Shown here piece by piece: positions 4,227 to 49,138 of a stretch of 64,000 nucleotides of DNA; the stretch's first letter is position 1, and every line of letters begins with the position of its first letter. The stretch covers positions 1-64,000 of the IMG/VR virus record IMGVR_UViG_3300037193_001286; one strand, written 5' to 3'. Position numbers and translations under genes: made by a program. This DNA is from a virus. The notes under the pieces were generated by a model, which saw nothing but the letters and a program-made list of their open reading frames with translations, had not been told where the DNA came from and ran no database searches.

Positions 4227-5537
4227 ATGACCAAGTCAACCAAGCGGCAGCTGACAGACATCGCTGTCCGAAATGCGACATCGACCGACAAGCGTCAGGA
4301 GATACCTGACGGCTTCGTCTCCGGCCTCTATCTGGTCGTGCAGCCCTCCGGCAAAAAGTCTTGGGCCATGCGCTACAAGTTCGGGGATCGCAACATCAAG
4401 CAGACCATCGGTTCCTACCCGGAAGTCTCGCTTGGCAAAGCCCGCGAACAGGCGAAGACGATTTCCGAGTGCCGGGAAATGGGCGGCAACCCGCTTGCCG
4501 ACATCGTGATCCAGAAGGACAACAATCTCCTAGAAGTCGTATTCGAGAAGTTCCTAACCCTGCACGTCGAGAAGAAGAATTCGGCGGGCACCGCCTCTCG
4601 CCGCCGCAACGTCTTCCACCGCGAGATCGAGCCGCGCTGGAAAGGACGTGTCGTTCAGTCGATCAAGCGCCGCGACATCATCGACATGCTGGATGAGATC
4701 GCCGAACGCGCGCCGGTCATGGCCAACCGCATCCACGGCTTCCTGCGCAAATTCTTCAACTGGTGCGTCGACCGCGAGTACATCGAGCACTCCCCGATGA
4801 ACCGGCTGAAGGCACCAGTGGACGAGGAAAGCCGCGACCGCGTCCTCGATCACGATGAACTCCGATTGGTATGGCTTGGCGCAGAGCGCATGGGTTATCC
4901 CTTCGGTCCTATCGTCCAAGCGCTCATCCTGTCGGCGCAGCGCCAGCAAGAAGTGGGCGCGATCAGCCGGAATGAATTGGGCGGCGCTCGCGAATTCGGC
5001 AGCAACACGCCAATGTGGACGATCCCGAAAGAGCGGACGAAGAACAAGAAGTCCGATCACATCGTCCCCCTCACCCCGATGCTCGACGACCTGTTCAGCG
5101 CCCAGCCGAAGATCATCGGCGATAAGGACTTCATCTTCACCTACACCGGCAAGCGCGCCGTCACCGGCTATAGCCATGCGAAGGACCGGCTCGACGATCT
5201 GATCCGTGCTGTCCAGCGCGAAGAAGCCAAGGCGCGCGGTGAGAACCCGTCGAAGGTTCCGCCGCTCGCACACTGGACGTTCCACGATCTTCGCCGGACG
5301 GCCGCGACCGGCATGGCCGCGCTCAAGGTCGATCCGCACGTCATCGAGGCGGTGATCAATCACAAGTCCGGCAACATCAAAGGCGTCGCCGCCGTGTACA
5401 ACCGCTATCAGTATTTCGATGAGAAATATGAGGCGTTGCTGAAGTGGGAGAACGCCGTTAAGCGGATCGTCACTGGCGAGGACAACGTCGTCTATCTCAA
5501 ATTCAACGTCGTGAACGACATGGATGGTAACGCGTGA
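4227..5537 (+). CDS. int: tyrosine integrase with Arm DNA-binding domain
   Basis: 'GLYLVVQPSGKKSW' Arm domain; catalytic R (SAQRQQE), K (TKN), HDLRR, H (INH) and Y (YNRY). Start placed at the ATG after AAGGAA. Confidence 0.93.
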   Translation: MTKSTKRQLTDIAVRNATSTDKRQEIPDGFVSGLYLVVQPSGKKSWAMRYKFGDRNIKQTIGSYPEVSLGKAREQAKTISECREMGGNPLADIVIQKDNNLLEVVFEKFLTLHVEKKNSAGTASRRRNVFHREIEPRWKGRVVQSIKRRDIIDMLDEIAERAPVMANRIHGFLRKFFNWCVDREYIEHSPMNRLKAPVDEESRDRVLDHDELRLVWLGAERMGYPFGPIVQALILSAQRQQEVGAISRNELGGAREFGSNTPMWTIPKERTKNKKSDHIVPLTPMLDDLFSAQPKIIGDKDFIFTYTGKRAVTGYSHAKDRLDDLIRAVQREEAKARGENPSKVPPLAHWTFHDLRRTAATGMAALKVDPHVIEAVINHKSGNIKGVAAVYNRYQYFDEKYEALLKWENAVKRIVTGEDNVVYLKFNVVNDMDGNA

Positions 5538-40046: not shown

Positions 40047-40274
40047 ATGAACCTCGTTCGTACCCAATCGATGCCGCCATTTGACCTGAAGGTCTATTAT
40101 CAACGGCGGCACCACCGCTTCATCGTGCAGGTGTCGCATCAAGACGGCCGGAGCATCGTCGAGCACGTCGATGCGACCTATGAGCCGGTGGTCGGCATCG
40201 ACTTTTCAGACAATGAAGAGATCAGCCTCGTGGCTGAGGAAATCTGCCGCCGCATGGAGCAAGGCGCGCAATGA
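40047..40274 (+). CDS. hypothetical protein
   Basis: ORF in a packed operon. Confidence 0.45.
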   Translation: MNLVRTQSMPPFDLKVYYQRRHHRFIVQVSHQDGRSIVEHVDATYEPVVGIDFSDNEEISLVAEEICRRMEQGAQ

Positions 40275-40537
40275 AGTCTATCCGTGAAATCATCGCTTAC
40301 AACAAGGAGCGGATGAAGGACTGCGAGGATGAGATCGCTCGCATCCAGAAGCTGCGCGAGAGCAAGGCTGTCACGACCGATGATCACGACAAGTGGATCG
40401 AGGGCTGGCGCGAGACGCGGGCGTTCTGCCGCGACACTATCGCCTATCTGACGACTCTTGAGCACTTCCAGAAGGCGTTAAAGAAGAAGCCCCCAAGCGG
40501 CGGCAACCGTGGGGGCTTCAACACTACTCGTCAGTAG
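40271..40537 (+). CDS. hypothetical protein
   Basis: ATGA coupling. Confidence 0.45.
   Translation: MKSIREIIAYNKERMKDCEDEIARIQKLRESKAVTTDDHDKWIEGWRETRAFCRDTIAYLTTLEHFQKALKKKPPSGGNRGGFNTTRQ
40480..40518 (-). terminator. terminator downstream of the TROVE gene
   Basis: AAGCCCCCA...TGGGGGCTT hairpin with a T-rich tail on the minus strand. Confidence 0.55.
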
Positions 40538-41855
40538 CTTCCTGTAGCACCGGCTGGCCGATGCCTTCGGCAGCTGCGATGTATCGCAGGATGCCTTCAG
40601 AGAAGCCGTCGATGTGCGTCCAGCCATTGCCGTAACCGACGCCGTTCCGGTAGGAAGCGACGTTGATCATGTAGGCACGATCCGCACGCGGCGGCGGCAC
40701 AACGTCTGCCGTCTGCTCATCGGAGATGACGATCAGGCGGTCATGCCACTCACGGTTCGCACGCTCGATGGCCCTACCAAGATAGGTGCCCATGTGCATC
40801 TGCGAGCTGATCACCGCATCGACGCCAGCCATGCCGCGACGCGCCGGGACTTCCTTGATGTCATTCGAGAACGAAAACACCCGCAAGTCGCCGTTGATCA
40901 CCGACGCCAGAGCGGCGGCGGCATCCATCCGCATCATGTCCGAACGCTGCGATAGCCGCGTGTTCATCGAGCCGGAGACATCGACGAGGACAATCGTCTT
41001 GCCCGGCAGCTCGACGCCTTCAGACACCGCCTCGACCAGCGCCTGATCGATCACCCCTTCCAGCTGCGGCGCGGCGCGAGCGGCAGCAACGTAGCGGAAC
41101 GGGAAGACCATCTTGGCACCACGGCGAGCAAGGATCGCCTCCTTGACCAGATCGAGGTCGGCACCTGCCTCGACCATGTTGCGCAGGTTGCGCAACAGAG
41201 CGAGGTAGCCGATCTTCCCCTCCCGGATCAGGCGTTCGAACGTCTCCTTCTTGTCGGCACCCCCGGACAGCGCGACTTCCCACGTATCCGGCGTCACCAG
41301 CTCACGGTTGGCGAGCCGCTTGTAGAGCGATTCACGCTCCGGCGTCTTGCCCTTGGCGTGCGACAGGAACAGCACGTCGCGAAGGCGGACCATGCCGTCA
41401 CGGTCATACTTCGCCAGCGAATACTCGTTGAACTTGTCGAAGGCAGCAGCCAGCCCGCGCTTCATCTGGGCGGACAGCGGACGCTTGCCGCCACGCCAGT
41501 AGAGCGCAACCAGTTCTGCCAGCTCATCCGGGCGCGTGATCGTCGCGGTGATCGCCTCGGCAACGCCGGGACCGCCTCGACGGACCAGATCGAGAAGCAG
41601 CATCAGTGGTGCATGGCGAAGGCCGTGGACGGTACGCGCCTCGACAGCGAGCGCCGCAACGTCGTCCTTCTTCACCTTCTCTGCGGTCACCATGATGCGG
41701 TCGGCGATGGTCTCCCCGTCCTCGTAGAACTGGTTTTCCCATAGGAGACATGCGAGCACGGACCGGCGCAGCTGCAAGATCGGCGAAAGTCCGCCGACAG
41801 CGCGAGCGCCCTCGTGGGTGAACTCAGTCTTCCGGATTGGCTTGTTGGTGCGCAT
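40524..41855 (-). CDS. rsr: Ro60/Rsr TROVE-domain RNA-binding protein with vWA domain
   Basis: 'LRRSVLACLLWE..FYE', 'RPDEL', 'Y.LAKY', 'TWE', 'ALLRNLRN' and MIDAS 'DVSGSM'; AAAGGAA RBS before ATG 41855. Confidence 0.9.
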   Translation of the reverse strand: MRTNKPIRKTEFTHEGARAVGGLSPILQLRRSVLACLLWENQFYEDGETIADRIMVTAEKVKKDDVAALAVEARTVHGLRHAPLMLLLDLVRRGGPGVAEAITATITRPDELAELVALYWRGGKRPLSAQMKRGLAAAFDKFNEYSLAKYDRDGMVRLRDVLFLSHAKGKTPERESLYKRLANRELVTPDTWEVALSGGADKKETFERLIREGKIGYLALLRNLRNMVEAGADLDLVKEAILARRGAKMVFPFRYVAAARAAPQLEGVIDQALVEAVSEGVELPGKTIVLVDVSGSMNTRLSQRSDMMRMDAAAALASVINGDLRVFSFSNDIKEVPARRGMAGVDAVISSQMHMGTYLGRAIERANREWHDRLIVISDEQTADVVPPPRADRAYMINVASYRNGVGYGNGWTHIDGFSEGILRYIAAAEGIGQPVLQEATDE

Positions 41856-41919
41856 GATCGAAATTCCTTTGGTTGGCCTACGCCACCGTGGGTTTTCCAT
41901 CAGCGCCCAGGAGGAAGGT

Positions 41920-41988
41920 GGGCGGGAATAATCGCCAGACGGTCTGGACATCATTTCAAGTGAAGTAACCGTCAGCTTCGCCACGCCC
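41920..41988 (-). ncRNA. Y RNA-like unit (short); 4th of array in transcription order
   Basis: GGGCG-TGGCGAAG-CTGACGG-TTACTTC-insert-CCGTCTG-..ATTCC-CGCCC, with self-complementary ends. Confidence 0.75.
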
Positions 41989-41997
41989 GTTTTCCGG

Positions 41998-42104
41998 TCC
42001 AGCGGGAACTATCGATACGGTCACATGCCTGATTTGAACAGGCACCACCCGGCTTAAAGCCGATGGTTCATCCACGAAGTATCCGTATCTTACGCCACGC
42101 CGGA
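41998..42104 (-). ncRNA. Y RNA-like unit with hairpin and T-arm; 3rd of array
   Basis: Same scaffold (GATACGG/CCGTATC); insert has TCGG-CTTTAAG-CCGG and T-arm GCCTG-TTCAAAT-CAGGC. Confidence 0.78.
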
Positions 42105-42113
42105 GAAAACGAA

Positions 42114-42251
42114 GGGTCTGGCGGGAATTGACGAAATCGGGCTTTTTGCTGTTGCTCTACCGCTGAGCTAACCCCCTTTCGGGGGTACTGGATTCGAACC
42201 AATGACCTACAGTTTATGAGAAGTATCCGATCTCTTCGCCACGCCAGACCC
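42114..42251 (-). ncRNA. yrlA: YrlA-type Y RNA (circularly permuted tRNA mimic); 2nd of array
   Basis: 10-bp terminal stem GGGTCTGGCG/CGCCAGACCC; T-arm ATTGG-TTCGAAT-CCAGT; acceptor stem ACCCCC-GAAA-GGGGGT; D-arm GCTC-AGCGGTA-GAGC. Confidence 0.88.
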
Positions 42252-42273
42252 TATAAGAATCTCCATAGCGCCA

Positions 42274-42337
42274 ACGGGAATAAGCGGAAACGGTCTGGCT
42301 CTCTATTGACAAGAAGTAACCGTTACCTTCGCCACGT
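42274..42337 (-). ncRNA. Y RNA-like unit (short); 1st of array
   Basis: ACG-TGGCGAAG-GTAACGG-TTACTTC-19 nt insert-CCGTTTC-..ATTCC-CGT. Confidence 0.72.
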
Positions 42338-42347
42338 CAGCAATTAA

Positions 42348-42376
42348 GGAGTAAATGCAAATTTGTCGGATTGCAA
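42348..42376 (-). promoter_or_regulatory. promoter of the Y RNA-rsr operon with CAAATTTG operator
   Basis: TTGCAA-tccGACAAATTTGCAtt-TACTCC (17-bp spacer), ending about 10 nt before the first Y RNA. Confidence 0.55.
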
Positions 42377-42461
42377 GCTTGTAATTACCTAATAGGCATA
42401 TTATCACTATGTACAGAGACGGCCGCTGGGGCTGTCTTCGCTAATTTTGGAGAAACTCATC

Positions 42462-43565
42462 GTGTCGGACGTAATCATTTGCGGCTTCGCCGCCACCATC
42501 CAGTACATCAATCCCAAAAATGTTGAATTCGATATTCACCCGGCAGCCAAGCTGTTTCCAGTCCCGACTTCGGAGGATCGCGCGGCGCTCAAGGCGTCGC
42601 TCGTCGAGCACGGTTTCAGCTCGACCAATCCGATCATCGTCTATGCGGATCGCAATCAGATCGTCGATGGACGGACACGCTGGGCCATCGAAAAGGAGCT
42701 GAAGCGCGACTTGGAAATCCCGGTTGCGTTCGTCCAATTTCCCGATGACGAAGCTGCAAAGCGCTTCGCGCTGTCGCAGAACCTTGGCCGTCGCCACCTC
42801 ACCCGCGAGCAGCGCGACCAGATGATCAACGATCTCGTTTTCGACGGCTGGGCGGTCAAGGACTTGGCCGAGATGTTCGGCATCTCCGAATCGGCCGTCA
42901 CCAAGATCACGACGGAAACCCGCGATCTCATCGAAGAAGAACGCAACAAGAAGATCGTCGCCCTTGTCGACGAAGGTAAAACGCAGCGCGAAGTGGCTGA
43001 GGAAGTCGGCGTCAACGCGGCGACCGTGAACCGCGTGTTGCAGAAACGGACAAAATCCGAAATCGCAACGGACGGCAGCTGGCTGAACAAAAAGCCCGCC
43101 GTCGAGCCTGTCGTCAAGCCGACCGAAATCGATCCGCTGAAGATCACCGCCGTCCAAGCCAAGCAGGACGAGAAGATCGAGCGTCAGGTCGCCAAGAAGG
43201 TCGAACAGGCTCTCAAGGTCGAGCGCAAGAAGCTCGACAAGGAATTCGACGTGAAGGTCCGCGAGGCTGCCGACGCCTTCGTCAACCAGAACATCCTGCC
43301 GGTCTATGGCAAGCGCATCGAGCTGGCCGAACAGATCATCGCCTCGCACAAGGGCGTCATGACGAAGTCCCAGTTCCGCAAGGTGCTGTCTGTCCTTCAC
43401 CCGGATTCGACGCAGGATGAGGAACACAAGAAGAAGCTCGCTGCTGTCTTCGACATGTTCAAGTCGCTGGAACCGGTGCTGATCGAACCCAAGACGGCCG
43501 AAATCGAGCCGCTGGCGGCAACCGTCGAAGAATTCACCGCCAAGAAGACGCGGAAGGCTGCATGA
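42462..43565 (+). CDS. ParB/Srx N-terminal domain protein with HTH motifs
   Basis: 'HPAAKLFP...LKASL.EHG...PI......IVDGRTR...NLGRRHLT'; GGAGA RBS before GTG. Start uncertain. Confidence 0.7.
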   Translation: MSDVIICGFAATIQYINPKNVEFDIHPAAKLFPVPTSEDRAALKASLVEHGFSSTNPIIVYADRNQIVDGRTRWAIEKELKRDLEIPVAFVQFPDDEAAKRFALSQNLGRRHLTREQRDQMINDLVFDGWAVKDLAEMFGISESAVTKITTETRDLIEEERNKKIVALVDEGKTQREVAEEVGVNAATVNRVLQKRTKSEIATDGSWLNKKPAVEPVVKPTEIDPLKITAVQAKQDEKIERQVAKKVEQALKVERKKLDKEFDVKVREAADAFVNQNILPVYGKRIELAEQIIASHKGVMTKSQFRKVLSVLHPDSTQDEEHKKKLAAVFDMFKSLEPVLIEPKTAEIEPLAATVEEFTAKKTRKAA

Positions 43566-44428: not shown

Positions 44429-44451
44429 AACCGCCTTCGGGCGGTTTTTTT
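44429..44451 (+). terminator. rho-independent terminator
   Basis: AACCGCC-TTCG-GGCGGTT-TTTTT between convergent genes. Confidence 0.8.
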
Positions 44452-46057
44452 ACGCGATCAGCGCGTCGATATCGACCGAGTTTTCCGTCTCAAGCTTCAG
44501 TGCCGCAATCGCCATGATCGCCGCCACGGCAGGGTCTATGCGCCCGGTGGACTTCGATTTTTCCGGCTTGCGGTTGTTCGCGGCGTCGAAAGCGACCACG
44601 ACGTTGGACATCGCCCAGCGCAGCACCGGATGCCCGCCATGGCGGATGCGCCCCTGTAGCGCCAGCTCCTCGACCAGATCGAGCGACGGCCCCATATCCT
44701 TGAAGCCTTGGCCGTGGCTCATCAGCGGTATGATAAGCCCCTGCCGCGCCAAGGATTGCCGGAAAACGTCGATCCGCCAGCGGTCGTAAGCGATCTTGTG
44801 GAACGGGATCGTCTTCGACAGCTCGCCGATGTCACGCGCAAGGAAGTCGTAATCAAGCGCCTCGCCCGGAACCGGGATCATCAGATCGCGATCCGCCCAT
44901 GCCCGGTATGGCGCACGGTCGCGGATGGCGCGCGCGTCGAGCGTATCATTCGGCGTCCAGATGCGCGGCATCAGATGGATGATGCCCTCGTCATCCTCGA
45001 CCGCCATCACCAGCGCCGAAAGGTCCACCCTCGCCGACAGGTCGAGGCCCGCGCCGACTTTGCGATCCGAATAGAACAATGCCTCATTGATTGCCTCATC
45101 CCCCCTCGCCCAGACCGCCTGAGTGAGGAATGGAGCTTTAGCCTGGACGCGCTGGTTCAGGTACAGATTGCGCACCGACGCTTCCAGCGCGGGCAGCTTC
45201 ACGGCGCGGCCCATCATCGTGCGGAACTCGTCGATGTCGCGATAATCGCCCAGTGTCGGATTGGCCTTCAGCCACTGCTTTTCGTCGAGCAGCTTGCACT
45301 CTGGATCGGCGGCATAGAGGTGAACCGTGAAGGTCTCGTCCTCGATCACGCCCGCCTTCACTTTGAGGCCATAGTCGATCAGTTCGGAAAGAAGGTGCTC
45401 ATCGCTCGCCGCTTGCGTCGAAATAACCATCATCAGCGGCTCGACCTGCGATCCAAGCGACGTCATCAGCGCGTCATAGAGCGCCGAATTCTTCGACTGG
45501 GCCAGCTCGTCATAGATCACGAAATCCAGACCCTCGCCGAATGCGCCACCGGCATCCGCTGAGATCGCCGTGTAGGTCGAGCCGTCCTCCTTGTGGACGA
45601 TCACCTTCGACGAGTTGATCACCTTCAGCTTCTTCATCAAGGCGCGATTGCGGAAGACGATGGTCGCGACCAGGCGGTGGATGATGCCAGCTTGCTTGCG
45701 GGTCGTCGCGGCGCTGACGATCGTCGAGTTCGGCTTCTTGAATGGACCGACCAGGTGCAGCAGCAAGATCACCGCCGCAAGCAGCGATTTCCCAGCGCGC
45801 CGGCCGACTGAAAGTATCCCTTGCCGCCTTTTGCGCCGCCCATCCTCTGTTCTGGGGTTATAGACGTCCCGGATGAAGTCGATCTGGAACTGTCGAAGGC
45901 GAAGCGGCTGGTTGACATATTTACCGGCCGGGACGACCAGCGAATGAGCGAACGCGATGGCCAAGCCCGATGGCAGATCCCAGTCCTCTTTGGGAACGTC
46001 CAGCGCCTTCATGCGTCGATGCCGGAGTTGCCGTTTGTCCTTCACGATCTGGTCCAT
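44450..46057 (-). CDS. terL: terminase large subunit
   Basis: Walker A 'GRRAGKS', Walker B 'VIYDEL', 'ISTQ', nuclease 'GLDLS...DLSA' and 'RIDPAVA'. Confidence 0.93.
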   Translation of the reverse strand: MDQIVKDKRQLRHRRMKALDVPKEDWDLPSGLAIAFAHSLVVPAGKYVNQPLRLRQFQIDFIRDVYNPRTEDGRRKRRQGILSVGRRAGKSLLAAVILLLHLVGPFKKPNSTIVSAATTRKQAGIIHRLVATIVFRNRALMKKLKVINSSKVIVHKEDGSTYTAISADAGGAFGEGLDFVIYDELAQSKNSALYDALMTSLGSQVEPLMMVISTQAASDEHLLSELIDYGLKVKAGVIEDETFTVHLYAADPECKLLDEKQWLKANPTLGDYRDIDEFRTMMGRAVKLPALEASVRNLYLNQRVQAKAPFLTQAVWARGDEAINEALFYSDRKVGAGLDLSARVDLSALVMAVEDDEGIIHLMPRIWTPNDTLDARAIRDRAPYRAWADRDLMIPVPGEALDYDFLARDIGELSKTIPFHKIAYDRWRIDVFRQSLARQGLIIPLMSHGQGFKDMGPSLDLVEELALQGRIRHGGHPVLRWAMSNVVVAFDAANNRKPEKSKSTGRIDPAVAAIMAIAALKLETENSVDIDALIA

Positions 46058-47179: not shown

Positions 47180-47208
47180 TTGCTATTCGTCAAACTTGCC
47201 TTTATGTA
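47180..47208 (+). promoter_or_regulatory. early promoter (related copies at 48026, 49073, 50445)
   Basis: TTGCTA-N17-TATGTA with GTCAAACTTGCC in the spacer. Confidence 0.65.
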
Positions 47209-48011: not shown

Positions 48012-48090
48012 TCACATTTGCCCTATTGCTATTAGTCAAACTTGCCATATGGATATGTGCATAGACAACGCGTCACGAAAGGCAAGGCAA

Positions 48091-49050: not shown

Positions 49051-49138
49051 GCACAATTAATCAAATTTGCCATTGCTATTAAGCAAGTTTGCCTATATGT
49101 AAGAAGGCATAGGGCAAACACGCTTTGGAGCGAGGCAA

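What the first reader, a model, noticed from the sequence alone, without database searches (positions are those of the whole stretch)
40524..42376. Phage Ro60 operon with a tandem array of four different Y RNAs
Seen: upstream of and co-oriented with the TROVE/Ro60 gene are four repeats of one scaffold. On the minus strand each reads terminal stem-TGGCG(A/T)A-7-bp stem-(T/A)TACTTC-[variable insert]-complementary stem-..TTCC-terminal stem. The inner stems differ between units but keep pairing (GATACGG/CCGTATC, AGATCGG/CCGATTT, CTGACGG/CCGTCTG, GTAACGG/CCGTTTC). One promoter precedes the array and one terminator follows rsr. Known: bacterial Ro60 (Rsr) binds Y RNAs, YrlA mimics tRNA, and rsr/yrl pairs occur in some phages. 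Inference: this is a modular cassette in which one protein is loaded with four cargo RNAs. No rtcB or rtcR is present in the window, so the cassette may act in counter-defence or redirect host RNA decay (PNPase) instead of belonging to the usual RNA-repair operon.
Basis: partly seen in the sequence, partly recalled or inferred. Interest (0 to 1): 0.9.

Follow-up and report, generated by a model that had tools for sequence, protein, structure and literature searches.

The report
Phage Ro60 gene with four Y RNAs
A complete 74-kb soil phage genome carries a gene for the RNA-binding ring protein Ro60 (Rsr), preceded by four small RNA genes that share one conserved "handle" but carry different tRNA-like inserts; this is a typical member of the known bacterial and phage Ro60/Y-RNA system, whose multi-RNA arrays turn out to be the rule in this branch of the family.

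Summary
On the minus strand, four back-to-back units (42341-42270, 42251-42114, 42104-41998, 41988-41920) share one scaffold. They lie 64 nt upstream of a TROVE+vWA (Ro60/Rsr) gene (41855-40524).

A covariance model built only from these four units found 300 listed matches in 99 homologous rsr loci, all on the rsr strand. Across them, 95% of stem cells pair, and all 17 modelled pairs show compensatory changes. In whole-genome searches the handle occurs only next to rsr. Unit 2 is a YrlA-type tRNA mimic (Rfam YrlA, E 1.5e-7, below the gathering score). Unit 3 has a T-arm. Units 1 and 4 are short hairpins.

Arrays of 2-8 such units are the norm in this Rsr clade, and four is the commonest size in bacterial genomes. 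The short / YrlA-type / T-arm-type / short order recurs in a phage whose Rsr is only 46% identical.

So this is a new member of a known kind (Chen 2014; phiLo Ro60/Yrl1-2, 2025), not a novel system. This scan has noted similar arrays on other DNA many times.

One added point: many family members carry a register-exact anticodon-arm mimic. This makes them near-complete permuted tRNAs, some annotated as tRNAs in cultured phages. The function (counter-defence or PNPase control) remains untested.

The parts
42348..42376 (-). Promoter-like region. It has a -35-like TTGCAA (42376-42371), the near-palindrome CAAATTTG in the spacer (42365-42358) and a weak -10-like TACTCC (42353-42348). The predicted start lies near the first base of unit 1.
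   Evidence: The motif TTGC-N7-CAAAYTTG occurs at 5 sites against 0.6 expected. It aligns with sites at 47180, 48026 and 49073, and with the region upstream of the L001 array. The generic sigma-70 scan does not find it. That it is a promoter is inferred.
42270..42341 (-). Y RNA unit 1 (72 nt, short type). It has a 7-bp terminal stem, UGGCGAAG, an inner stem GGUAACGG/CCGUUUCC with one U-U mismatch, UUACUUC, and an apical 5-bp hairpin with the loop GUCAAUA.
   Evidence: R1 scores 78.1 bits and R2 66.2 bits, E 3.8e-14.
42114..42251 (-). Y RNA unit 2 (138 nt, YrlA type). It has a 10-bp terminal stem, the handle, and a tRNA-like insert. In tRNA order the insert reads: CUCAUAA, ACUGU, variable loop AGGUC, T-arm AUUGG-UUCGAAU-CCAGU, closed acceptor-like stem ACCCCC-GAAA-GGGGGU, UA, D-arm GCUC-AGCGGUA-GAGC, and ACAG, which pairs back with CUGU.
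   Evidence: Rfam YrlA RF02553 scores 41.3 bits, E 1.5e-7, over the full model but below the gathering score of 69. R1 scores 107.3 bits. Fold. ARAGORN calls no tRNA.
41998..42104 (-). Y RNA unit 3 (107 nt, T-arm type). It has a 7-bp terminal stem, the handle variant UGGCGUAAG, a perfect 7-bp inner stem GAUACGG/CCGUAUC, and an insert made of one long hairpin followed by a T-arm GCCUG-UUCAAAU-CAGGC. The hairpin can be drawn with a 7-nt loop CUUUAAG or a 3-nt loop. There is no D-arm or acceptor stem.
   Evidence: (z -3.1). R1 scores 102.8 bits and R2 49.8 bits, E 6.3e-10.
41920..41988 (-). Y RNA unit 4 (69 nt, short type). It has a 5-bp terminal stem, UGGCGAAG, an inner stem GCUGACGG/CCGUC(U)GGC, UUACUUC, and an apical hairpin with the 7-nt loop CUUGAAA. 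This loop has the same letters as a CU-NNN-AA anticodon loop. The UUGAAA core is shared with units in L001, L002 and L004.
   Evidence: R1 scores 66.3 bits and R2 53.7 bits.
40524..41855 (-). rsr, encoding a Ro60-like protein of 443 aa (TROVE/HEAT ring domain plus a vWA domain with a DVSGS MIDAS-type motif). The start is the ATG at 41855, preceded by AAAGGAA.
   Evidence: Pfam TROVE 8.6e-11, VWA_CoxE and VWA_2. PHROG 850 'RNA-binding protein' 2.1e-46. The best solved relative is Thermus phage phiLo Ro60 (9KOP/9L5Y), E 1.9e-24 over residues 13-426. GC3 is 0.79. Relatives of 45-76% identity occur in 125 loci.
40480..40519 (-). Intrinsic-terminator-like hairpin GAAGCCCCCA...UGGGGGCUUC followed by UUCUUU, starting 5 nt after the rsr stop codon. 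It lies where the convergent plus-strand ORF 40271-40537 ends, so it may act in both directions.
   Evidence: Fold gives dG -27 kcal/mol, z -3.2. The terminator scan did not list it. Function is inferred.

Best explanation
This is a stand-alone phage transcription unit that makes a Ro60 (Rsr) ribonucleoprotein set.

Proposed mechanism:
1. One promoter at about 42376-42348 drives a transcript of roughly 1.9 kb. It holds four Y RNAs followed by the rsr mRNA and ends at the hairpin at 40519-40480 (inferred).
2. The 9-18-nt spacers leave no room for internal promoters. The four RNAs are therefore cut out of the precursor and trimmed to the base of their terminal stems. This is inferred; the precedent is M. 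smegmatis YrlA and YrlB, which are processed from one precursor upstream of rsr (PMC4201824).
3. Each RNA binds the Rsr ring through the shared handle, which consists of the terminal stem, UGGCG(A/U)AG opposite ..UUCC, the inner stem and UACUUC. Conservation, covariation and exclusive linkage to rsr are shown here. Binding itself is inferred from the published GNCGAAN0-1G Rsr-binding motif.
4. The variable inserts give each particle a different partner surface. Unit 2 is a YrlA-type tRNA mimic, unit 3 has a hairpin plus a T-arm, and units 1 and 4 are short hairpins.

By analogy with Deinococcus Rsr/Yrn1/PNPase and phiLo Ro60/Yrl/PNPase, the particles most likely tether Rsr to host PNPase or to tRNA-binding factors during infection. 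They would modulate host RNA decay or blunt an RNA- or tRNA-directed defence. This functional step is inferred and not tested.
For: Scaffold and folds.

Family conservation: R1, built from the four units alone, finds 300 listed matches in 99 rsr loci, all on the rsr strand and nearly all just upstream. Pairing is 95% against 37-51% in slid controls, and 17 of 17 pairs show double changes.

Exclusive linkage to rsr: R2 finds exactly 4 matches in this genome. It finds 4 in a 9.3-Mb genome whose locus L110 is a Bradyrhizobium chromosome, 4 in a 5.2-Mb genome, 8 in CcrColossus, 5 in Xanthomonas phage 10KY502B and 5 in Brevundimonas phage Kikimora. All of these matches fall within about 2 kb of the rsr locus fetched from each genome.

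Identity of the units: unit 2 matches Rfam YrlA over the full model (E 1.5e-7). The handle contains the published GNCGAAN0-1G motif (PMC4201824).

Conserved array grammar: the window reads s-A-T-s, L026 (Rsr 46% identical) reads s-A-T-s, L001 s-A-s-T, and L011 and L022 s-A-T. Of 86 loci, 71 have at least one unit with both T and D arms.

Tight packing: 77 of 172 spacers are 20 nt or shorter.

Protein: Rsr is full length and homologous to a solved phage Ro60 that binds two upstream Yrl RNAs and host PNPase (PMC12135203).

Gene orientation: plus-strand genes flank the cassette on both sides.
Against: There is no expression, processing or binding evidence for this phage. No RNA run holds the sequence, and the two RNA runs laid gave zero reads.

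Unit 2 is below Rfam's gathering score, and the other three units match no Rfam family.

The promoter is weak by sigma-70 consensus.

In the precursor fold, unit 1's terminal stem competes with another pairing.

The biological role in infection is entirely by analogy.
Confidence: 0.8

Rival explanations
1. The repeats are cis-acting structures in the rsr 5' leader rather than stable trans-acting RNAs. For example, they could be repeated Rsr-binding sites that autoregulate rsr translation or stability.
For: The units lie in the leader of rsr on the same strand, with no room for their own promoters. A half-handle GGUGGCGUAGG lies at 41887-41877, next to the ribosome-binding site.
Against: In some relatives the units lie downstream of rsr (L024, L013, L039, L027). 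In Salmonella, yrlBA follows rsr (PMC7790460). The inserts are conserved tRNA-like modules that a leader would not need. M. smegmatis units upstream of rsr accumulate as Rsr-bound RNAs (PMC4201824). The half-handle is not conserved in L001.
Confidence: 0.07
2. Only unit 2 (the YrlA type) is a working Y RNA. Units 1, 3 and 4 are decaying duplicates without a function of their own.
For: Only unit 2 matches a curated RNA family. The inserts of the short units are poorly conserved between relatives.
Against: All four handles keep pairing through compensatory changes and score E<=6e-10 with the family model. The same short / YrlA-type / T-arm-type / short composition and sizes recur at 46% Rsr identity in L026. 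Short units lead most arrays. The UUGAAA loop of unit 4 is kept in L001, L002 and L004 while the stems change.
Confidence: 0.06
3. The units are rearranged or degenerate tRNA genes, a tRNA-derived repeat array that merely sits next to rsr and does not work with it.
For: The inserts contain canonical T-arm, D-arm and variable-loop sequences. In cultured phages, annotators and ARAGORN call tRNAs inside such units.
Against: ARAGORN finds no tRNA in the window. The acceptor end is closed by a loop. Every unit is wrapped in the non-tRNA handle, and that handle is found only beside rsr in whole-genome searches.
Confidence: 0.03

Closest known systems
Bacterial Rsr with YrlA/YrlB Y RNAs (Salmonella rsr-yrlBA-rtcBA; M. 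smegmatis yrlA-yrlB-rsr; Rfam RF02553; Chen et al. 2014, PMC4201824)
   Same: Both have a TROVE+vWA protein and RNAs within 4 kb on the same strand. Both have the 5' motif GNCGAAN0-1G in a long stem formed by the two RNA ends. Both include one RNA with T-arm, closed acceptor stem and D-arm plus shorter companion RNAs. In M. smegmatis the RNAs lie upstream of rsr and are processed from one precursor.
   Different: Here there are four units rather than the two described. There is no rtcB, rtcA or rtcR. Unit 2 scores below Rfam's gathering threshold. The additional invariant UACUUC and UUCC elements of this clade are not part of the published description that I could read.
Thermus phage phiLo Ro60 with Yrl1 and Yrl2 (PDB 9KOP, 9L5Y; PMC12135203)
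   Same: Both are phage-encoded Ro60. phiLo Ro60 is the best solved relative (E 1.9e-24). Its Y-RNA-like genes lie directly upstream of the gene and have a CGAA-containing bulge. No PNPase match was looked for in this phage. In phiLo a ternary complex with host PNPase attenuates PNPase activity.
   Different: phiLo has two RNAs, neither reported as tRNA-like. The host is a thermophile. I could not test the phiLo RNAs against model R2 because no record accession was at hand.
Deinococcus radiodurans Rsr with Yrn1/Yrn2 and PNPase (the RYPER complex)
   Same: Several small RNAs are encoded upstream of rsr (four, a-d, were originally seen). The Y RNA tethers Rsr to PNPase. Yrn1 has a T-arm-like loop.
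   Different: The Deinococcus RNAs are a more metazoan-like lineage. phmmer did not reach the Deinococcus Rsr structure at E<=1e-3.
Escherichia phage Bas63 gp130, a Ro60-like protein that counters the Ppl defence system (PhageMaP preprint, PMC11482910)
   Same: It is a phage Ro60-like gene next to a run of genes annotated as tRNAs, which the authors suspect to be Y RNAs. It gives experimental support for a counter-defence role of a phage Ro60.
   Different: gp130 was identified by structural similarity only. Its RNAs are uncharacterised, and its relation to this clade was not tested here.
Vertebrate Ro60 with Y1-Y5 RNAs
   Same: One ring protein is served by two to four distinct Y RNAs that share a Ro-binding stem and differ in an effector loop.
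   Different: The vertebrate genes are transcribed separately by Pol III and have no tRNA-like module.

Membership tests
Ro60/Rsr protein (TROVE + vWA) | TROVE (HEAT-repeat ring) domain | tested here: met
   Pfam PF05731 scores 42.1 bits against a cut-off of 23. PHROG 850 scores 2.1e-46 over residues 9-429.
Ro60/Rsr protein (TROVE + vWA) | C-terminal von Willebrand A domain with a MIDAS motif | tested here: inconclusive
   VWA_CoxE (22.6 bits) and VWA_2 (21.4 bits) match residues 286-380 but fall just below their cut-offs. A DVSGS motif is readable in the sequence. The domain is covered by the full-length alignment to phiLo Ro60.
Ro60/Rsr protein (TROVE + vWA) | Closed ring fold with a central cavity | not tested
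   No structure was predicted. The fold is inferred from homology to 9KOP/9L5Y over residues 13-426 (E 1.9e-24).
Bacterial Y RNA / YrlA family (Rfam RF02553; Chen 2014) | Encoded within about 4 kb of rsr on the same strand | tested here: met
   The four units lie 64-486 nt upstream of the rsr ATG on the same strand. The same holds for all 300 listed matches in 99 loci.
Bacterial Y RNA / YrlA family (Rfam RF02553; Chen 2014) | GNCGAAN0-1G motif near the 5' end, within a long stem formed by the 5' and 3' ends | tested here: met
   U1, U2 and U4 read GGCGAAG, and U3 has the variant GGCGUAAG. The family consensus is GG(C/U)G(A/U/C)AG. The stems covary.
Bacterial Y RNA / YrlA family (Rfam RF02553; Chen 2014) | tRNA-like domain with T-arm, closed acceptor-like stem and D-arm (at least one RNA per locus) | tested here: met
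   Unit 2 has all three. Unit 3 has the T-arm only. Units 1 and 4 have none, like YrlB-type companions.
Bacterial Y RNA / YrlA family (Rfam RF02553; Chen 2014) | Score at or above Rfam's gathering threshold | tested here: not met
   Unit 2 scores 41.3 bits against the gathering score of 69 (E 1.5e-7). There are no gathering-level hits in the window. I therefore file it as a diverged relative of YrlA, not as an Rfam-level member.
Bacterial Y RNA / YrlA family (Rfam RF02553; Chen 2014) | Bound and stabilised by Rsr; discrete processed RNA | not testable with these tools
   No RNA data exist for this phage.
rsr-yrl-rtcBA RNA-repair operon | RtcB ligase (with or without RtcA) in the operon and a divergent RtcR | tested here: not met
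   No RtcB or RtcR match occurs in the 73.9-kb genome. A Bradyrhizobium relative (L085) does have rtcB directly after rsr, while other sampled relatives have unrelated genes there.

The most novel reading that the evidence does not exclude
The variable inserts may not be arbitrary cargo. They may be a panel of tRNA-part mimics that includes true anticodon-arm mimics.

Evidence from the family:
- Among 67 distinct T-arm units with a 5-nt RGGUY variable loop, I counted back in exact tRNA register. 33 have a stem with at least 4 of 5 pairs at positions 27-31/39-43. 29 of those have a Y32-U33...R37 seven-base loop. Shifted registers give 0-1.
- CU-NNN-AA is by far the commonest flank of 7-nt loops, with 34 cases against 7 for the next.
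- The 'anticodon' triplets vary (UGU, GUU, GGU, CAG, GUG, UUU, GAA, CAU and others).

In the window, unit 4 has the loop CUUGAAA. Unit 2 has a single-stranded CUCAUAA at positions 32-38.

The arrays could therefore be Ro60-held decoys, sensors or inhibitors for anticodon nucleases or tRNA-modifying enzymes. Phages would carry the set that suits their host's defences. A competitive-inhibitor role for YrlA was already floated by Hughes et al. 2020 (PMC7790460).
Probability: 0.2. Interest if true: 0.8.

Novelty: new member of a known kind. Interest (0 to 1): 0.45.

Why it matters
For this window alone the result is ordinary: another phage with Ro60 and Y RNAs.

The comparative picture is more useful:
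- Tightly packed arrays with a modal size of four and a conserved order of module types are the standard format of this Rsr clade, in phages and in bacteria.
- The handle is found only next to rsr.
- Many modules are near-complete permuted tRNAs with an anticodon arm.

This gives three practical benefits:
- A sequence and structure model for annotating these RNAs.
- An explanation for some doubtful 'tRNA' calls next to rsr in cultured phages (CcrColossus, Xanthomonas 10KY502B, Brevundimonas Kikimora).
- Culturable systems in which the long-open question of what bacterial and phage Ro60/Y RNA particles do can be tested.

Tried and rejected
- Rfam at gathering thresholds gave no hit in the window.
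- ARAGORN found no tRNA or tmRNA in the window, so the units are not ordinary tRNA genes.
- The generic sigma-70 scan found no promoter, and the terminator scan missed the rsr terminator.
- Sequencing runs: no RNA holder is listed. Two RNA runs of 'organism A' gave zero reads and are no test. DNA contigs from other soil samples carry the identical array.
- Literature: the supplement of Chen 2014 and the 2020 Annual Review (PMC10870794) are not held. I therefore could not check whether several units per genome were already tabulated there.
- Searches for YrlC, YrlD or Yrn3 found nothing relevant.
- The minus-strand ORF 42441-43427 upstream of the array is probably spurious (no family hit, GC3 0.62). 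The overlapping plus-strand ParB-like ORF is the real gene.
- I considered a fifth unit at 41887-41877 (GGUGGCGUAGG). R2 does not match it, and it is not conserved in L001.
- I did not predict the Rsr structure, because sequence homology to a solved Ro60 was judged sufficient.
- I did not test the phiLo Yrl1 and Yrl2 RNAs against R2, because no accession was at hand.
Full report
CONTEXT. The window is the first 64 kb of a 73,858-bp IMG/VR virus record with direct terminal repeats, rated 100% complete by CheckV. It comes from soil metagenomes. A large terminase lies at 44450-46057 on the minus strand. Its best cultured relatives are HK022/HK97-like siphoviruses at only 43% identity. The finding therefore sits in a complete, novel tailed-phage genome, not in a prophage.

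OBSERVATION. On the minus strand four units lie head to tail:
- U1, 42341-42270, 72 nt
- U2, 42251-42114, 138 nt
- U3, 42104-41998, 107 nt
- U4, 41988-41920, 69 nt

The spacers are 18, 9 and 9 nt. U4 ends 64 nt before the ATG (41855) of a 443-aa ORF that runs to 40524.

All four units align at both ends (A1). Each has a terminal stem of 5-10 bp, an unpaired U, and GG paired with the CC of UUCC. Then come CGAA (CGUA in U3), an inner stem of 7-8 bp ending in CGG, (U/A)UACUUC, and a variable insert. The return strand follows: CCG.., three or four bases, (A/G)UUCC and the terminal stem.

Single folds recover this shape (z -1.5 to -3.1). So does the fold of the whole 490-nt leader for U2-U4.

The inner stems of U1 and U4 each contain a U-U mismatch or bulged U. 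U3 carries the handle variant GGCGUAAG.

The ORF is a Ro60/Rsr homologue. It matches Pfam TROVE and two vWA models and PHROG 850 at 2.1e-46. It aligns over its full length to the solved Thermus phage phiLo Ro60 (9KOP/9L5Y, E 1.9e-24).

IS IT MORE THAN CHANCE? I built covariance model R1 from the four window units only. I searched it against 99 loci fetched by the Rsr protein: 45 IMG/VR phage contigs and 54 bacterial genome contigs.

- R1 gave 307 matches at E<=1. All 300 listed are on the rsr strand, and nearly all lie in the 2.5 kb upstream.
- On the 150 best, 95.0% of stem cells form a standard pair, against 37-51% when the 3' partner is slid by 1-3 columns. All 17 pairs show changes on both sides. 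This alignment was fitted to the model, so it leans towards the structure, but the margin is very large.
- The second-generation model R2 finds exactly four matches in the phage's whole genome.
- Whole-genome searches found 4 matches in a 9.3-Mb genome (locus L110, a Bradyrhizobium chromosome), 4 in a 5.2-Mb genome, 8 in CcrColossus, 5 in Xanthomonas phage 10KY502B and 5 in Brevundimonas phage Kikimora. All of them fall within about 2 kb of the rsr locus fetched from each genome.

The handle is therefore a specific companion of rsr.

WHAT THE UNITS ARE. The family consensus is: stem, U, GG(C/U)G(A/U/C)AG, inner stem ..CGG, (U/A)UACUUC, insert, CCG.., G.Y.U.R.UUCC, stem. It contains the GNCGAAN0-1G motif that Chen et al. 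2014 (PMC4201824) proposed as the Rsr-binding element of YrlA and YrlB.

U2 matches Rfam YrlA over the full model (41.3 bits, E 1.5e-7). It stays below the gathering score of 69.

Read in tRNA numbering, U2 runs as follows:
- CUCAUAA (positions 32-38)
- ACUGU (39-43)
- AGGUC (variable loop)
- AUUGG-UUCGAAU-CCAGU (T-arm)
- ACCCCC-GAAA-GGGGGU (closed acceptor stem)
- UA-GCUC-AGCGGUA-GAGC (U8, A9 and the D-arm)
- A-ACAG (26-30), which pairs back with CUGU

U2 is thus a YrlA-type tRNA mimic in which the handle enters at the 5' edge of the anticodon loop.

U3 has a hairpin plus a T-arm (GCCUG-UUCAAAU-CAGGC) and nothing else. U1 and U4 are short hairpins of the YrlB kind. The four units are indeed different from one another.

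HOW COMMON ARE ARRAYS? With R1 at E<1e-3, 86 loci have units. The counts are 1 unit in 12 loci, 2 in 20, 3 in 22, 4 in 20, 5 in 9 and 6 in 3. R1 undercounts: with R2, most of the bacterial loci L100-L125 have three to five units, four being the commonest, and two have seven.

I classified units as short (s), T+D arms (A) or T-arm only (T). The window reads s-A-T-s. L026, whose Rsr is only 46% identical, also reads s-A-T-s, with near-identical unit sizes (69, 132, 112, 65). L001 (76% identical) reads s-A-s-T. L011 and L022 read s-A-T. Of 86 loci, 71 have at least one A unit.

Spacers are 20 nt or shorter in 77 of 172 cases.

A four-unit array is therefore the typical format of this clade, not an exception. 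The module types are conserved, which argues for division of labour rather than redundancy.

TRANSCRIPTION UNIT. The generic sigma-70 scan finds nothing. However, TTGCAA-N5-CAAATTTG at 42376-42358 belongs to a motif with five sites in the window against 0.6 expected. It aligns with three plus-strand sites (47180, 48026, 49073) and with the region just upstream of the L001 array. A weak TA-initial -10 would place the start near the first base of U1.

After the rsr stop codon there is a GC-rich hairpin followed by UUCUUU.

The neighbours on both sides are plus-strand genes:
- A ParB-like/HTH gene at 42447-43565 (PHROG hits, GC3 0.78).
- Small ORFs ending at 40537 (GC3 0.72-0.79).

The cassette is therefore an isolated minus-strand unit. 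Related rsr-plus-array cassettes sit in quite different phages: 43-kb Xanthomonas phages and 280-356-kb Caulobacter and Brevundimonas jumbo phages. This fits a mobile module.

RtcB and RtcR are absent from the genome. That is not unusual. Among ten downstream ORFs sampled from seven relatives, only Bradyrhizobium L085 has rtcB directly after rsr.

MECHANISM. Shown here:
- a conserved, covarying handle
- its exclusive linkage to rsr
- co-orientation and tight packing of the units
- a tRNA-like module in U2 and a T-arm in U3
- conserved array grammar

Inferred from the literature:
- Rsr binds the handle.
- The units are cut from one precursor, as for M. smegmatis YrlA and YrlB (PMC4201824).
- The inserts tether Rsr to partners such as PNPase. 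This is known for the Deinococcus RYPER complex. In phiLo, the Ro60-Yrl-PNPase complex attenuates PNPase activity (PMC12135203).

A counter-defence role is plausible. The Ro60-like gp130 of phage Bas63 counters the Ppl system (PMC11482910). Nothing here tests that role. I found no RNA data.

AN EXTENSION SEEN IN THE FAMILY. I tested this.

- Seven-base loops of the form CU-NNN-AA closed by at least 3 bp occur in 46 of 243 units, against 2.2 in shuffles (maximum 8).
- Among 351 distinct non-T-loop candidates, CU..AA is the top flank combination, with 34 cases against 7 for the next.
- I took 67 distinct T-arm units with a 5-nt RGGUY variable loop and counted back in exact tRNA register. 33 have at least 4 of 5 pairs at positions 27-31/39-43. 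29 of these have a Y32-U33...R37 loop. Registers shifted by 1-4 bases give 0-1.
- In those units the UUC of the invariant UACUUC is the start of the anticodon stem.

Many long units are therefore near-complete cloverleaves, permuted between the D-arm and the anticodon arm and closed at the acceptor end. The published YrlA model has no anticodon loop (bioRxiv 10.1101/312249). The hairpin upstream of the T-arm was called 'V' in PMC4201824.

In cultured phages such units overlap annotated tRNAs:
- tRNA-Thr in 10KY502B
- tRNA-Gln in CcrColossus
- tRNA-Ser in Kikimora

ARAGORN's calls are inconsistent: tRNA-Ser in Kikimora, none in CcrColossus, and a tRNA-Glu inside a different unit of 10KY502B.

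In the window itself the signal is modest. U4 has the loop CUUGAAA on a weak stem. U2 has CUCAUAA at positions 32-38 without a contiguous stem, and U3 has an ambiguous CUUUAAG. U1 does not fit.

Related loci are not independent, so these counts overstate the number of evolutionary events.

VERDICT. This is a new member of a known kind: a phage Ro60 gene with Y RNAs. Phage examples have been known since 2014, one was studied biochemically in 2025, and Deinococcus offers the precedent of four small RNAs upstream of rsr.

This scan has already reported similar handle-plus-insert arrays next to Ro60-like genes on much other DNA. I could not find the array format or the anticodon-arm reading in the papers I could open, but two key sources were not available to me.

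Noticed in passing
L127:4326-4459(-), L128:5014-5180(-) and 4716-4851(-), L129:4384-4517(-): In three cultured phages (Xanthomonas 10KY502B, Caulobacter CcrColossus, Brevundimonas Kikimora), the 'tRNA-Thr', 'tRNA-Gln' and 'tRNA-Ser' annotated just upstream of rsr lie inside (the Kikimora call overruns the unit by one base) full Y-RNA units. These units have the handle and a closed acceptor stem. ARAGORN agrees only for Kikimora. These calls are probably permuted tRNA mimics, not decoding tRNAs.
   Followed up: partly
family-wide (L001-L129), e.g. L011:2179-2313, L045:2335-2468, L048:400-534: Many long units carry a register-exact anticodon arm (5-bp stem, CU-NNN-AA loop), then AGGUC and a T-arm. 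The UUC of the invariant UACUUC starts the anticodon stem. The triplets vary (UGU, GUU, GGU, CAG, GUG, UUU, GAA, CAU and others).
   Followed up: yes
window 42358-42376(-), 47180-47198(+), 48026-48044(+), 49073-49091(+): A shared promoter/operator-like motif, TTGC-N7-CAAAYTTG, occurs at 5 sites against 0.6 expected. It links the Y RNA/rsr cassette to three plus-strand sites further along the genome, which suggests common regulation by one DNA-binding protein.
   Followed up: partly
window 41877-41887(-): A half-handle, GGUGGCGUAGG, without UACUUC or a return strand lies between unit 4 and the rsr ribosome-binding site. Model R2 does not match it, and it is not conserved in L001. It could be a remnant of a unit or an Rsr-binding site on the mRNA.
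   Followed up: partly
window 42447-43565(+): The gene diverging from the array is a ParB-like/HTH protein on the plus strand (PHROG 2159 at 2.1e-13, GC3 0.78). The overlapping minus-strand ORF 42441-43427 is probably not a gene. A hairpin with a T-tract on the plus strand (42416-42438) sits just before it.
   Followed up: partly
L085:1806-5282(+): A Bradyrhizobium relative has four handle units, then rsr, then an RtcB ligase gene directly downstream. The same RNA family therefore also serves the classical RNA-repair operon.
   Followed up: partly
L128:4392-5587(-): Caulobacter phage CcrColossus carries eight handle units in about 1.2 kb upstream of its rsr gene. This is the largest array seen here in a cultured phage.
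   Followed up: partly
window 42322 with 42287, and 41969 with 41937 (minus strand; approximate positions): U1 and U4 have a U-U mismatch at the same place in the inner stem. Across the family the two middle pairs of that stem are unpaired in 22 and 36 of 150 sequences. A conserved irregularity there may be part of the protein-binding site.
   Followed up: no
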